Sequence record: OZ470804.1
Strand: one strand, 5' to 3'
Length of the DNA stretch: 64,000 nt
From: a phage
Shown: one piece after another, positions 45,970 to 48,751 of the stretch
How the letters are laid out: every line of letters starts with the position of its first letter
Position numbering within the stretch: the first letter of the stretch is position 1
Translations under genes and position numbers: made by a program
The notes under the pieces: model-generated
Seen by the model: the letters and a program-made list of their open reading frames with translations, nothing else
Database searches by the model: none
Told to the model about the DNA's origin: nothing

Positions 45970-46058
45970 ACAAGCCTGATAAAAATCTGTAAATTGTCAA
46001 TCAACGGGGAGGGGATGACCTTCCCCACTAAATAAAATCCTAAACTGGAGATTCAAAA
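45967..46058 (+). promoter_or_regulatory. leader cassette type B, copy 3
   Basis: TAGACA-17 bp-TAAATT then GGGGAGGGGATGACCTTCCCC. Confidence 0.65.
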
Positions 46059-46529: not shown

Positions 46530-46622
46530 TTGCAATCAGATATCAAAACAAGTAAATTACTAATCAACGGGAGGCGATAACCTCCCCACTAAGTAAAGTC
46601 CTTAAACTAGGAGATTCAAAAA
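46530..46622 (+). promoter_or_regulatory. leader cassette type B, copy 4
   Basis: TTGCAA-17 bp-TAAATT then GGGAGGCGATAACCTCCCC variant hairpin. Confidence 0.6.
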
Positions 46623-47153
46623 ATGAACAAGTTCAAAGCTATCAACTTCATTCGTTCAAATAGTGTTATGTCAAAGCCTGTTAAAGACACCTATGAATTT
46701 CGTTGTAATGGTGTACATTTTGCAACAATCACCAAATCAGAAAACGGGGCTTATTACGTCCATCGTCGTAATGTTTCTACTGTTGTAGTTTCTCACTTTA
46801 TGCAAGCTGTCGCGGAACTTCTCCCGATGTTTTTAGGTCTTTACTTAGATGAGTGTAAAAACGTTTACAATCACGTTAAAAACCTTTTAAACAGTTATAA
46901 AATGGCTTACGAACGCTCTATCAAGTCCTTAAACAAGTTCTATAAAGCCCCTGCAAATACTGTATCAATGGCCTATGGCGTAGGTGGCTGGACTTTTAAC
47001 CTTTCCCTAGTGGAAGAAATCGAGCTTTATGATTTACGTCCTAATGGTTACTCTAAGACACTGGGAGAAGGTTTAACGTTCAATATCAAAAACTTAGAAA
47101 AAACTTTAAAAGATATTGAAAAAGATATTGACGAAACAATCAAAAACCTGTAA
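46623..47153 (+). CDS. hypothetical protein (array gene 13)
   Basis: 176 aa ORF. Confidence 0.55.
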   Translation: MNKFKAINFIRSNSVMSKPVKDTYEFRCNGVHFATITKSENGAYYVHRRNVSTVVVSHFMQAVAELLPMFLGLYLDECKNVYNHVKNLLNSYKMAYERSIKSLNKFYKAPANTVSMAYGVGGWTFNLSLVEEIELYDLRPNGYSKTLGEGLTFNIKNLEKTLKDIEKDIDETIKNL

Positions 47154-47243
47154 TTTGTCAATCAACGGGGAGGGAATGACCTCCCCCCACTACATAAAAC
47201 CCTTAAACTAGGAGATTCAAAAATGGTGATAAGAAAGAAGTAG
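47128..47243 (+). promoter_or_regulatory. leader cassette type B, copy 5 (orphan, drives only a 6-codon ORF)
   Basis: TTGACG-17 bp-TAATTT then hairpin then RBS then ATGGTGATAAGAAAGAAGTAG. Confidence 0.55.
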
Positions 47244-47245
47244 TG

Positions 47246-48110
47246 ACCATGTTAATAGCTTGTTAAAAAGATTAGACACTTGTTAGGAACTTGTTAATTA
47301 TCTTAACAAAATAACTCTTAAAAATTAACTTGTTAGCTCTTGTTAGTCATCTGTTAAGATTCTGTAAAGCCTATTCAGCACTTGTTAAGAAACTGTTAAA
47401 GCCTTGTTAGTTCTGTTAAGAATCTGTTAAGACCTTTGAAGAGTTGTTAAGAAGATGTGAGAGCTGTTAAGAGATTGTTAAGGATATTTTAAAATTTTGC
47501 AAAGGGGATGTTACAGGGATGTTAAGGGCTACCAAGCAGATATACATCTTCTACAGATATTTTTGAGTTCCTTCAAAGACCCTAAAAAATGACTTGATAG
47601 TCCTATTTTATAAAAATTTTAAAATTCTGAATAATTACCTAGACAGTCTTTTAAAAATACAGGTAGAAACAGGCTTATAAGATACCTTGTTAGTACCGTG
47701 TTAGACCTTGTGAGATAAGGTCTGTGAAGATATTCCTGTTAAGTTTGTTAAAACAGTCTATATAGAGGCTTAGTAATACCTAGTGAACACCTATAGAGAG
47801 TCACATAGCTTACATAGAGATTAAGAGGTGTATAGGAGCTTCTAAGAGTGTGTAGAGAGATGGTTAAGATGATTGTATAGGTTGTTTAGAAGGCTTGTTA
47901 GAAGAGTGTTTAGATGGCTATTTAGAAGGGCTATACAGAGGGCTATTAAGACCACTAGATAGTTACTAAGATACTATATAGTACTATATAACTATATAGA
48001 GAGTAAGATTAAGAAGGTTGTTAAGAAGGATAGATATTTTATTCACATATGATGGTGACCCAGAGGTTGGGACAACCGATAAAATTTTATAAAAAATATA
48101 AATTTCGTAA
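47246..48110. repeat. non-coding block of degenerate ~11 bp periodic repeats (YTGTTAAG / TTGTTAG / TATAG units)
   Basis: more than 20 copies of CTGTTAAG-like units between 47270 and 47480, further TAGAG/TTAAG/TATAG units to 48050; no ORF longer than 60 codons. Confidence 0.7.
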
Positions 48111-48137
48111 ATTTTACTCAATAAAAAGCCCCCGATT
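48110..48137 (-). terminator. intrinsic terminator (minus strand)
   Basis: AGCCCCC..GGAGGCT hairpin with plus-strand A-run, downstream of ORF 48158-48751. Confidence 0.45.
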
Positions 48138-48157
48138 AAGGAGGCTCTTAAGATATT

Positions 48158-48751
48158 TTAAATCAGTGTTTCCAGAACTGTTTTTAATGATGACTTGGTT
48201 GTCTGATAAAAATGAGTAAATCCATTGTTGTTATCAAATACCTGCATCATGATATCATCTCCCTTGATTGGGTACACTCGGATATCATAGTGAAAACCAT
48301 TAAAGACACAAGAACCACTACAGAATGCTCTAAAGTCATCCACTGAGATATACTCTTCATGACCTGTGATTTTTATACAAACACCTTTACTCGGTCTCTT
48401 AGGGTTGATATCTTCCATCACAGACATACTCTGTCCACCAAGAGATACCATAGTGACTACTTTACGGTTCTTCTGTCTAAAGTACATCTTAACTTTCTGT
48501 AAAGTGTCTTCATAGAACGGATAAGACTTCTCTACAAAGATTCCTTCAAGTGGCTCTTTACCATTTTTAACTTCTCTGTAACCACGTACTGCAAAAACAA
48601 TCTGTTTTAATCTGTCAAGACTTTCTTCAGAGAGTGCTTCTTGAGCATCACTCCAGTCAAGGACTAGATAGTTACCTTCAACATCTTTTAAGTTATCTTT
48701 TTCCATAACTATCACACCATTATCGTAAAACTTGGTAAGCTGGAACTGCAA
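48158..48751 (-). CDS. hypothetical protein
   Basis: 197 aa ORF. Confidence 0.5.
   Translation of the reverse strand: MQFQLTKFYDNGVIVMEKDNLKDVEGNYLVLDWSDAQEALSEESLDRLKQIVFAVRGYREVKNGKEPLEGIFVEKSYPFYEDTLQKVKMYFRQKNRKVVTMVSLGGQSMSVMEDINPKRPSKGVCIKITGHEEYISVDDFRAFCSGSCVFNGFHYDIRVYPIKGDDIMMQVFDNNNGFTHFYQTTKSSLKTVLETLI

What the first reader, a model, noticed from the sequence alone, without database searches (positions are those of the whole stretch)
47246..48110. 0.9 kb non-coding block of ~11 bp periodic YTGTTAAG-type repeats at the convergence of two gene blocks
The largest non-coding stretch in the window contains over 20 degenerate copies of CTGTTAAG/TTGTTAG spaced about 10-12 bp apart (47270-47480), then a second zone of TAGAG/TTAAG/TATAG units (47700-48050). 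Helical-repeat spacing puts the sites on one face of the DNA, as in arrays bound cooperatively by small terminase subunits, partition or replication-initiator proteins. It may also be a genome end or injection-stop region.
Basis: seen in the sequence. Interest (0 to 1): 0.7.

Follow-up and report, generated by a model that had tools for sequence, protein, structure and literature searches.

The report
Phased repeat array at phage genome end
The non-coding block is the terminal-repeat and packaging-junction region of a Felix O1-like phage: its TGTTAAG repeats sit on one face of the DNA helix inside the repeat that forms both ends of the virion DNA, much like the short-repeat arrays around the phage T7 terminal repeat.

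Summary
Window 47154-48157 is the largest non-coding gap in the window and lies between convergent gene blocks. TGTTA[AG] occurs 22 times on the + strand and once on the - strand, about 29-fold above background, phased at 10.3 bp (R 0.84, P~2e-4). A second strand-biased zone also holds up (T[AT]NAGA 16:1).

The window is a Felixounavirus genome. In relatives with PhageTerm-mapped ends from three labs, the ~580-bp direct terminal repeat (DTR) lies in this block. Window 47228-47533 matches DTR positions 275-581. The right cut site TGTTAAGGGCTACC|AAGCAG is exact at 47533|47534.

In 22 relatives from three genera:
- both cut sites are near-invariant;
- each carries an outward-facing TGTTAAGGG-type motif (TGTWWAGGG);
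- 17-25 forward sites keep a 10.15-10.5 bp phase (about 10.4 in all but one) over more than 450 bp;
- DTR lengths step by about 10.9 bp;
- the TGTTA core is 98-99% conserved, against 85-89% for spacers.

Best reading: a cis-acting scaffold for end recognition and packaging, analogous to the T7 concatemer junction. The binding protein is unknown.

Partition and replication-initiator readings have no support, and injection-stop was not tested.

Oddity: this genome lacks about 960 bp found in all relatives, including the left cut site.

The DTR is already known. The phased array was not found described in the papers searched. Interest is moderate.

The parts
47167..47186 (+). Hairpin GGGGAGGGAATGACCTCCCC after the last + strand gene. 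It is part of a ~85-bp intergenic cassette (47142-47226) that recurs upstream of several small genes.
   Evidence: for the sequence. Searches show repeated matches of 47142-47226 to other intergenic sites. The terminator scan did not call it because there is no T tract.
47226..47228 (.). Junction (ATGG|TGATAAG) of a ~960-bp gap relative to every relative. Missing are a 249-nt gene, its terminator, ~457 nt of non-coding repeats and DTR positions 1-274 including the left cut site.
   Evidence: 1,004 bp here against 1,950-2,340 bp in 22 relatives; 0 of 248 records span the junction; not in IMG/VR; the missing DNA is not elsewhere in the window.
47228..47533 (+). Right 306 bp of the Felixounavirus direct terminal repeat. 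It carries the main array of 16 strict (18 relaxed) forward TGTTA[AG] units phased at 10.3 bp, plus one inverted copy (CTTAACA, 47302-47308).
   Evidence: Pr103Blw DTR 275-581 = window 47228-47533, 90.6% identity.
47520..47548 (+). Predicted right genome end: TGTTAAGGGCTACC|AAGCAGATATACATC, cut between 47533 and 47534. The terminal unit of the array faces outward.
   Evidence: The sequence is identical at the DTR right boundary of Pr103Blw and Ro111lw and conserved in 22 of the 23 relatives examined, including Suspvirus and Mooglevirus (Andreotti L003 gave no match to the search pattern; the two other genera carry TGTTTAG rather than TGTTAAG in the boundary unit).
47534..47680 (.). Highly conserved unique spacer just inside the left DTR copy in virion DNA. 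It includes an AT-rich stretch (~47581-47660, 80% A+T or more).
   Evidence: 96% column identity; AT content.
47681..47760 (+). Second small cluster of six forward TGT[TG]A[AG] units (47688, 47699, 47709, 47723, 47737, 47746).
   Evidence: 98% column identity.
47761..48038 (+). Zone 2: strand-biased T[AT]NAGA, TAGAG and TTAAGA units, CTATATAG palindromes, a local ~12-bp period, and very low C on the + strand.
   Evidence: 94% column identity.
48040..48095 (.). Conserved 56-nt element TATTCACATATGATGGTGACCCAGAGGTTGGGACAACCGATAAAATTTTATAAAAA. It overlaps a perfect DnaA-box match TTATTCACA at 48039-48047.
   Evidence: Function unknown.
48129..48143 (-). Intrinsic terminator closing the - strand gene block.

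Best explanation
The block is the terminal region (concatemer junction) of a Felix O1-like phage that packages unit-length DNA with a short, non-permuted direct terminal repeat (DTR).

In replicating concatemers one DTR copy lies between genome units. The packaging nuclease cuts at the two DTR boundaries, and the repeat is duplicated so that each virion DNA carries it at both ends, as in the T7-type scheme.

Window 47228-47533 is the right half of that repeat, and 47533|47534 is the right cut site. Window 47534-48157 is the unique non-coding DNA that follows the left DTR copy.

I infer that the TGTTAAG units are binding sites for a sequence-specific packaging or terminus-recognition protein, either a small-terminase equivalent or another factor. 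In this model about 22 same-orientation sites on one helical face nucleate a long wrapped or filament-like complex across the DTR. The outward-facing terminal units (TGTTAAGGG) at each boundary then position cleavage 12-14 bp further out.

Shown here: position inside the DTR by homology to mapped relatives, phasing, strand bias, selective conservation of the motif core, boundary symmetry, and length quantisation.

Inferred: that a protein binds, which protein it is, and that the array directs cutting and packaging.
For: 1. Pr103Blw carries an annotated 581-bp DTR, identical at both record ends, inside the homologous non-coding block (PMC8303462). Ro111lw has a 613-bp DTR (PMC6454146) with the same first and last bases.

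2. Four records from a second lab start at the same base, and three of them have the repeat at both ends (PMC11737134). ECOH1 from a third lab starts there too, after 6 extra bases and with one C fewer.

3. Window 47228-47533 equals DTR 275-581, and the right-boundary sequence is exact.

4. Both boundary sequences are conserved in nearly all of the 23 relatives examined, including Suspvirus SUSP1 and Mooglevirus Mordin (left in 22, right in 22; L016 and L003 each missed one search pattern). The only minus-strand TGTWWAGGG in each ~2-kb region is at the left boundary, and a plus-strand copy is at the right boundary.

5. Forward sites stay in phase at 10.15-10.5 bp (10.35-10.5 in 21 of 22; R 0.64-0.83) across whole DTRs of 570-658 bp. 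DTR lengths are quantised at ~10.9 bp (R 0.86).

6. The TGTTA core is 98-99% conserved against 85-89% for spacers.

7. Across genera the non-coding block aligns over 96-100% of its length at 70-79% identity, while neighbouring genes align only partly.

8. The motif clusters nowhere else in the 64 kb.

9. There is no promoter excess and no Rfam family.

10. The T7 junction, tested directly, has 13 CCTAAAG copies, all on one strand, lying left of, inside and right of its 160-bp repeat.
Against: - There are no reads or virion-end data for this genome.
- This genome lacks the left DTR boundary and the left 274 bp of the repeat. Either its ends differ from those of its relatives or the sequence is mis-joined.
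- No binding protein is identified. Felix O1 has no recognisable TerS (PMC3185647) and the terminase lies outside the window.
- PhageTerm boundaries can be off by a few bases, so the 12-nt versus 14-nt cut offsets are soft.
- The relatives are closely related, so the conservation and quantisation statistics are not independent samples.
- The function of the analogous T7 arrays is itself unsettled. Single insertions near the T7 ends are mostly tolerated (bioRxiv 10.1101/2024.10.10.617714).
Confidence: 0.6

Rival explanations
1. Replication origin: the units are iterons for a phage initiator, and the adjacent AT-rich stretch (47581-47660) is the unwinding element. The location in the DTR is secondary.
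For: Many same-orientation phased short repeats lie next to an 80% or higher A+T segment. There is a perfect DnaA box at 48039-48047.
Against: No initiator-like gene is adjacent, and all nine flanking genes are PHROGs of unknown function. The polymerase and primase/helicase genes lie 31-38 kb away. The motif brackets the mapped cut sites in inverted orientation, which an origin does not require. GC skew only follows transcription direction. DnaA-like matches are not enriched at 1 mismatch or fewer.
Confidence: 0.12
2. Structural or ejection role: the phased units make the terminal DNA intrinsically curved or bind a virion protein, for spooling, anchoring the last-packaged end in the portal or tail, or pausing injection as with the T5 stop signal.
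For: Helical phasing of an anisotropic motif over about 50 turns is the classic recipe for curvature. The array lies within the last 300 bp of the right end.
Against: Curvature was not computed. There is no evidence of two-step transfer in Felix O1-like phages. This reading does not explain the inverted units at the left cut site. DnaA-box clusters of the kind I recall being reported in T5 are not enriched here.
Confidence: 0.1
3. Host-factor array: low-affinity DnaA, IHF or other nucleoid-protein sites at ~11-bp spacing, as in the low-affinity DnaA arrays of oriC.
For: The reverse complement of the unit (TTCTTAACA) matches TTWTNCACA at 7 of 9 positions. Matches at 2 mismatches or fewer on the - strand number 20 against 11 expected.
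Against: At 1 mismatch or fewer there is no enrichment (2 against 1.2). The conserved core is TAACA rather than CACA. IHF consensus matches number 6 against ~1.6 expected on both strands, with none perfect.
Confidence: 0.05
4. No sequence-specific function: the repeats are slippage or unequal-crossover products drifting in dispensable terminal DNA.
For: Unit-number polymorphism exists among relatives (DTR 570-658 bp). The window genome appears to tolerate loss of 960 bp here.
Against: The core is conserved well above the spacers. Motif, order and phase are retained across three genera whose flanking protein is only 53-56% identical. The block is as conserved as neighbouring genes or more so.
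Confidence: 0.05
5. Transcriptional element: a promoter or operator cluster, or a non-coding RNA gene.
For: It is a large conserved non-coding block, and the units could be operator sites.
Against: Promoter-like sites number 8 against 5.5±2.1 in shuffles, all weak. There is no Rfam match. Genes on both sides are transcribed toward the block, so there is nothing downstream to drive.
Confidence: 0.03

Closest known systems
Phage T7 concatemer junction: 160-bp terminal repeat with flanking short-repeat arrays (called SRL and SRR by Dunn & Studier 1983, recalled from memory; the sequence was checked here)
   Same: A short, non-permuted DTR in a non-coding terminal region. Many copies of one heptamer, all on one strand, lie left of, inside and right of the repeat (13 CCTAAAG, 13:0). 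The repeat is duplicated during packaging (PMC10438801).
   Different: There is no sequence homology (CCTAAAG versus TGTTAAG). T7 spacing runs in 13-bp multiples, not the helical repeat. Here most units lie inside the DTR, the DTR is 3.6 times longer, inverted units mark the left cut site, and flanking genes converge on the ends. The virus is a myovirus with an unrelated terminase lineage (PMC3185647).
Annotated DTRs of Felixounavirus relatives (Pr103Blw MW481326, Ro111lw MH571750, vB_EcoM_D4 PP886228 and others)
   Same: It is the same locus at 90.6% identity over DTR 275-581, with an identical right-boundary sequence.
   Different: The window lacks DTR 1-274 and the left boundary. The cited papers report only DTR length and packaging class, not the repeat array (PMC8303462, PMC6454146, PMC11737134).
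pac and cos recognition regions made of repeated terminase-binding sites (P1 pac hexamer clusters, lambda cosB R sites, SPP1 pacL/pacR boxes; recalled from memory, not tested here)
   Same: Clusters of short oriented repeats flank a terminase cut site and are thought to bend or wrap DNA around the recognition subunit.
   Different: Those systems have 3-7 sites, not about 25. They give headful-permuted or cohesive ends rather than a DTR, and their TerS proteins are known.
Iteron-type origins and the low-affinity DnaA arrays of oriC (recalled from memory)
   Same: Same-orientation short sites at ~11-bp spacing next to AT-rich DNA.
   Different: No initiator gene is nearby, the motif is not a DnaA box at useful stringency, and the sites coincide with mapped genome ends.

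Membership tests
Short direct terminal repeat (T7-type DTR) genome end | The same sequence is present at both physical ends of virion DNA | not testable with these tools
   There are no reads or virion DNA for this genome. In the relative Pr103Blw the first and last 581 bp of the record are identical, and D4, I14.1 and E9 have the repeat at both ends.
Short direct terminal repeat (T7-type DTR) genome end | Fixed, non-permuted termini shown by read-start pile-ups | not testable with these tools
   PhageTerm results are reported for relatives (PMC8303462, PMC6454146, PMC11737134). Records from three labs start at the same base or within 6 nt of it.
Short direct terminal repeat (T7-type DTR) genome end | The window segment is homologous to the whole mapped DTR, including both boundaries | tested here: inconclusive
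   The right 306 bp and the right boundary are present and exact. The left 274 bp and the left boundary are absent from the whole window.
T7-like short-repeat arrays at the concatemer junction | Multiple copies of one short motif, all in one orientation, in and around the terminal repeat | tested here: met
   Window: 22:1 strand bias. T7: 13:0.
T7-like short-repeat arrays at the concatemer junction | Sequence homology to the T7 motif or region | tested here: not met
   The motifs differ (TGTTAAG versus CCTAAAG) and so does the spacing (10.3-10.4 bp versus 13-bp multiples). This is an analogue, not a homologue.
TerS-bound pac or cos recognition site | An identified small terminase subunit that binds the repeats | not testable with these tools
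   No TerS is recognised in Felix O1 (PMC3185647). The terminase genes are outside the window. Bas63 gene 1, upstream of TerL, is an untested candidate.
TerS-bound pac or cos recognition site | Repeats adjacent to the cleavage site | tested here: met
   By homology, outward-facing TGTTAAGGG lies 12-14 nt from both mapped boundaries.
Iteron-type replication origin | Iterons plus an AT-rich unwinding element plus a cognate initiator gene nearby | tested here: not met
   Repeats and an AT-rich stretch are present, but all nine flanking genes are of unknown function with no initiator signature.
DnaA-box or IHF site cluster | Enrichment of consensus matches (TTWTNCACA; WATCAANNNNTTR) | tested here: not met
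   At 1 mismatch or fewer, DnaA gives 2+2 against 1.2 expected per strand. The array units match only at 2 mismatches.
Known structured RNA family | An Rfam covariance-model match | tested here: not met
   The only hit is a sub-threshold Phe_leader match over the terminator (23 bits against 55).

The most novel reading that the evidence does not exclude
Felix O1-like phages, which have no recognisable small terminase, define both genome ends with a previously undescribed nucleoprotein ruler. In this reading about 25 TGTTAAG units held in strict helical phase across the whole terminal repeat bind a dedicated protein, with oppositely oriented terminal units setting the two cut sites. The window's genome has lost the left cut site and half the repeat yet keeps the main array. 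If that loss is real, the array rather than the boundary sequence would be the essential element, and ends could be re-specified from it.
Probability: 0.15. Interest if true: 0.7.

Novelty: new variant of a known kind. Interest (0 to 1): 0.45.

Why it matters
Felix O1-like phages are widely used for Salmonella and E. coli typing, biocontrol and therapy, yet how they cut and package their DNA is unstudied and no small terminase is known.

This work locates the ends and the likely cis-acting recognition scaffold. That gives (i) a rule for orienting and completing the roughly 250 Felixounavirus records, most of which are opened arbitrarily, and (ii) a defined fragment for pulling down the recognition protein.

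It also provides a second, independent example of one-orientation short-repeat arrays around a short terminal repeat. As far as I recall, the role of such arrays in T7 has stayed unclear since 1983. Here the strict helical phasing and length quantisation make a face-of-helix binding model directly testable.

For engineering, it marks DNA that should not be disturbed and about 1 kb that may be dispensable.

Tried and rejected
- Promoter and terminator scan: no excess of promoter-like sites. Only the expected terminator of the - block was found.
- Rfam at a permissive E-value: nothing relevant.
- PHROGs on nine flanking genes: all unknown function, so no DNA-binding candidate.
- PHROGs on ten large genes: replication and nucleotide-metabolism module plus rIIA/B, with no terminase in the window.
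- DnaA and IHF consensus scans: not enriched at useful stringency.
- Search for the left DTR boundary or the missing 960 bp elsewhere in the window: absent.
- Search for the window's junction in 50,697 phage records and in IMG/VR: absent.
- GC skew as an origin or terminus signal: it only mirrors transcription direction.
- Literature: Whichard 2010 infers short terminal repeats but does not describe this block. VpaE1, Olsen 2020 and PhageMaP say nothing on it. PhageMaP Bas63 guides target genes only, so there are no data on the block. Two searches failed on a short term. One 'pacB' search was swamped by PacBio hits and one search was too loose.
- DNA curvature modelling was considered but not run, because I did not trust wedge parameters recalled from memory.

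Full report

Yes. Window 47154-48157 (1,004 bp) carries no credible ORF. It is the largest gene-free gap in the window and lies between a + strand gene block ending at 47153 and a - strand block ending at 48158.

TGTTA[AG] occurs 22 times on the + strand and once on the - strand within 47230-48050. That is 26.8/kb against 0.93/kb in the rest of the window. The longer form [CT]TGTTAAG is about 130-fold enriched. No other place in the 64 kb reaches even 5 copies per 300 nt.

Spacings are 9-11, 20 and 31 bp. The 16 strict sites in 47228-47535 are phase-coherent at 10.30 bp (resultant R=0.84). Only about 1 in 5,000 random placements with a minimum spacing of 9 bp reach this. Base autocorrelation peaks at lags 11 and 31, and TRF reports periods 11 and 31.

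There are 13 strict or 15 relaxed copies in that sub-range, and 22 or 26 in the whole block.

The second zone (47681-48050) is also real. T[AT]NAGA is 16:1 against 1.7 expected, TAAGA is 8:0 and TAGAG is 5:0. There are three CTATATAG palindromes and a local ~12-bp period, though phasing is weaker.

**2. What genome is this, and what lies here in relatives?**

The block matches 257 phage records, nearly all Felixounavirus (Felix O1-like myoviruses, Ounavirinae), at up to ~95% identity. The window holds the DNA polymerase, primase/helicase, ribonucleotide reductases, NAMPT, rIIA/rIIB and 22 tRNA genes. The terminase is outside it.

In every relative examined the two flanking genes are 1,950-2,340 bp apart, not 1,004 bp. 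The relatives have one or two extra small genes, then a 1.6-1.7 kb non-coding block.

The window lacks about 960 bp (bumzen L001 2627-3588), with a clean junction at 47226/47228 (ATGG|TGATAAG). None of 248 phage records carries that junction, and neither does IMG/VR. The missing DNA is not elsewhere in the window.

**3. The block contains the physical genome ends.**

Escherichia phage Pr103Blw (MW481326) is deposited with a PhageTerm-derived 581-bp 'short direct terminal repeat' at both record ends (PMC8303462). The two copies are identical.

Joined head to tail, its ends recreate the same non-coding block in this order:
- small gene;
- 457 nt;
- DTR of 581 bp;
- 631 nt;
- first gene on the minus strand.

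DTR positions 275-581 align to window 47228-47533 at 90.6% identity. The main TGTTAAG array is therefore the right half of the terminal repeat.

Ro111lw has a 613-bp DTR (PMC6454146) that starts and ends with the same sequences as Pr103Blw: GCCCCCTTAACATTTTCTTAACAA... and ...TGTTAAGGGCTACC|AAGCAGATATACATC.

Four records from an independent lab (vB_EcoM_D4, I14.1, H12, E9; DTRs by PhageTerm, PMC11737134) begin at exactly the same base. Three of them carry the repeat at both ends. ECOH1, from a third lab, begins there after 6 extra bases and with one C fewer in the boundary run.

Whichard et al. had inferred 'short terminal repeats' for Felix O1 from size data alone and found no small terminase (PMC3185647).

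The right-boundary sequence is exact in the window at 47520-47533|47534-47548.

**4. Anatomy and conservation.**

*Boundaries.* I compared 23 relatives, including Suspvirus SUSP1 and Mooglevirus Mordin, whose flanking protein is only 53-56% identical to the window's. Both boundary sequences are close to invariant: the left pattern was found in 22 and the right pattern in 22, with L016 and L003 each missing one.

Read outward, the two ends look alike...TGTTAAGGGGGC|TAGCATTTAC on the left and ...TGTTAAGGGCTACC|AAGCAGATAT on the right. Each cut therefore lies 12-14 nt beyond an outward-facing unit of the same motif. In SUSP1 and Mordin these two boundary units are variants (TGTAAAG on the left, TGTTTAG on the right), so the shared pattern is TGTWWAGGG.

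The only minus-strand TGTWWAGGG in each ~2-kb region is the one at the left boundary. Two further inverted units follow it at 11-bp spacing. All other units, 17-25 per DTR, face right.

*Phase.* Across whole DTRs of 570-658 bp the forward units stay in phase at 10.15-10.5 bp (10.35-10.5 in 21 of 22; SUSP1 is the low value), with R 0.64-0.83. This matches the B-DNA helical repeat and is held over about 50 turns, even though the units form two clusters separated by non-repeat DNA.

*Length steps.* Inferred DTR lengths fall at 570, ~580, ~591, ~602, ~613, 633 and 658 bp, quantised at ~10.9 bp (R 0.86). Unit gain and loss therefore preserves phase. The relatives are phylogenetically related, so that statistic is descriptive rather than a strict probability.

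*Core versus spacer.* In an alignment of 21 relatives the TGTTA core is 98-99% conserved, while positions on either side are 84-89% conserved. The whole block shows 91-98% column identity (83% at the extreme right, where there are indels).

*Across genera.* The non-coding block aligns over 96-100% of its length at 70-79% identity, whereas neighbouring genes align only partly or not at all. TGTTA is the top 5-mer in all three genera (23:7, 22:6 and 26:5 by strand).

*Other scans.* There is no excess of promoter-like sites. One terminator closes the - block, and there is no Rfam match.

**5. How it most likely works.**

The established part is the scheme for T7-type phages. Concatemers hold one repeat copy between genome units. 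Terminase cuts at defined sites, and the repeat is re-synthesised so that each virion has it at both ends (PMC10438801).

The evidence above places this block at that junction.

I infer that the TGTTAAG units are binding sites for a sequence-specific recognition protein. That protein would assemble along one face of the helix over the whole repeat. The oppositely oriented terminal units would then place the nuclease at both boundaries.

Four things support this:
- the one-face phasing;
- phase-preserving length changes;
- selective conservation of the core;
- the mirror arrangement at the cut sites.

It remains an inference, because no protein is identified and no binding was measured. My overall confidence is 0.6. 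It is about 0.85 that this is the DTR or junction region of the lineage, and about 0.5 that the array directs end recognition.

Zone 2 and the highly conserved spacer (47534-47760, 96-98% identity) lie just inside the left DTR copy. They may be a second part of the same recognition region, comparable in position to the array right of the T7 left repeat. I could not assign them a role.

**6. Comparison with known systems.**

I tested the T7 analogy on the T7 sequence itself (NC_001604). The joined ends carry 13 CCTAAAG copies, all on one strand. They lie left of, inside and right of the 160-bp repeat, with 13-bp multiple spacing in the right-hand array.

The architecture is analogous, but there is no homology. 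The motif, spacing, repeat length and virus lineage all differ.

[quoted passage not shown] That fits redundant arrays plus critical boundaries.

P1 pac, lambda cosB and SPP1 pac are looser analogues, recalled from memory.

The iteron-origin and host DnaA/IHF readings were considered. There is an AT-rich stretch (47581-47660) and one perfect DnaA box (48039-48047). Against these readings, no initiator gene is adjacent, consensus matches are not enriched at 1 mismatch or fewer, and neither reading explains the inverted units at mapped ends.

**7. The window-specific gap.**

The gap removes four things:
- the 249-nt gene (Felix O1 NP_944825 / bas63_0111 homolog);
- that gene's terminator;
- 457 nt of CCTTAAAAG-type repeats;
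- DTR positions 1-274, including the left cut site.

PhageMaP insertions in Bas63 gene 111 score about 0 on host S17, against -1 or below for the capsid and polymerase genes. Loss of the gene alone is therefore plausible. This assumes that the paper's gene numbers follow the locus tags.

Loss of the left cut site is harder to reconcile with the model. Three explanations remain open:
- this phage makes its left end elsewhere;
- the array suffices to specify the end;
- the sequence was mis-joined when a linear contig was re-opened.

I could not resolve this without reads.

**8. Novelty and verdict.**

The DTR of Felixounaviruses and its approximate length are already known and annotated in a few records.

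In the searched library (papers read) I did not find any description of the following:
- the helically phased one-orientation array filling the repeat;
- its conservation across three genera;
- the phase-preserving length polymorphism;
- the outward-facing motif at both cut sites.

I rate it a new variant of a known kind, namely a short-DTR junction with short-repeat arrays. Interest is moderate (0.45). It is not surprising in principle, but it gives a clean, testable handle on packaging in a widely used phage group with no known small terminase.

Noticed in passing
window 47226-47228: About 960 bp present in all 23 aligned relatives is missing here: a 249-nt gene, its terminator, 457 nt of CCTTAAAAG-type repeats and the left 274 bp of the DTR with the left cut site. 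The junction is found in none of 248 phage records nor in IMG/VR. It could be a real deletion or a join artefact.
   Followed up: partly
window 47142-47226; also 46000-46058 and 46562-46622: An ~85-bp intergenic cassette (hairpin GGGGAGGGAATGACCTCCCC plus RBS and ATG) recurs upstream of several small genes in this block. The left breakpoint of the 960-bp gap sits exactly at the end of one copy.
   Followed up: no
window 48039-48095: A perfect DnaA-box match TTATTCACA (one of only 5 in the 64-kb window, both strands) lies at the start of a conserved 56-nt element just before the terminator of the - block. In SUSP1 and Mordin the box is imperfect.
   Followed up: partly
L001 2883-3349 (bumzen); absent from the window: The left part of the non-coding block in relatives carries a different repeated unit (CCTTAAAAG, CCCTTAAA and AAAGCC types) that resembles the T7 CCTAAAG heptamer. 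It was not analysed further.
   Followed up: no
window 58065-63555: A cluster of 22 tRNA genes, all on the + strand.
   Followed up: no
GenBank GU169904 (hits H64, H97): The record named 'Staphylococcus phage SA1' (147 kb) contains Felix O1-like DNA, including this DTR and the flanking gene at ~88-92% identity. It is probably a chimeric or contaminated record.
   Followed up: no
Bas63 MZ501086 gene 1 (PhageMaP supplement): A hypothetical gene sits immediately upstream of the large terminase gene and has no fitness data. It is an untested candidate for the missing small terminase or recognition subunit.
   Followed up: no
window 47754-48053: The + strand is very C-poor (7-14% C, up to 31% G) across zone 2, a stronger strand asymmetry than in the flanking genes.
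   Followed up: no
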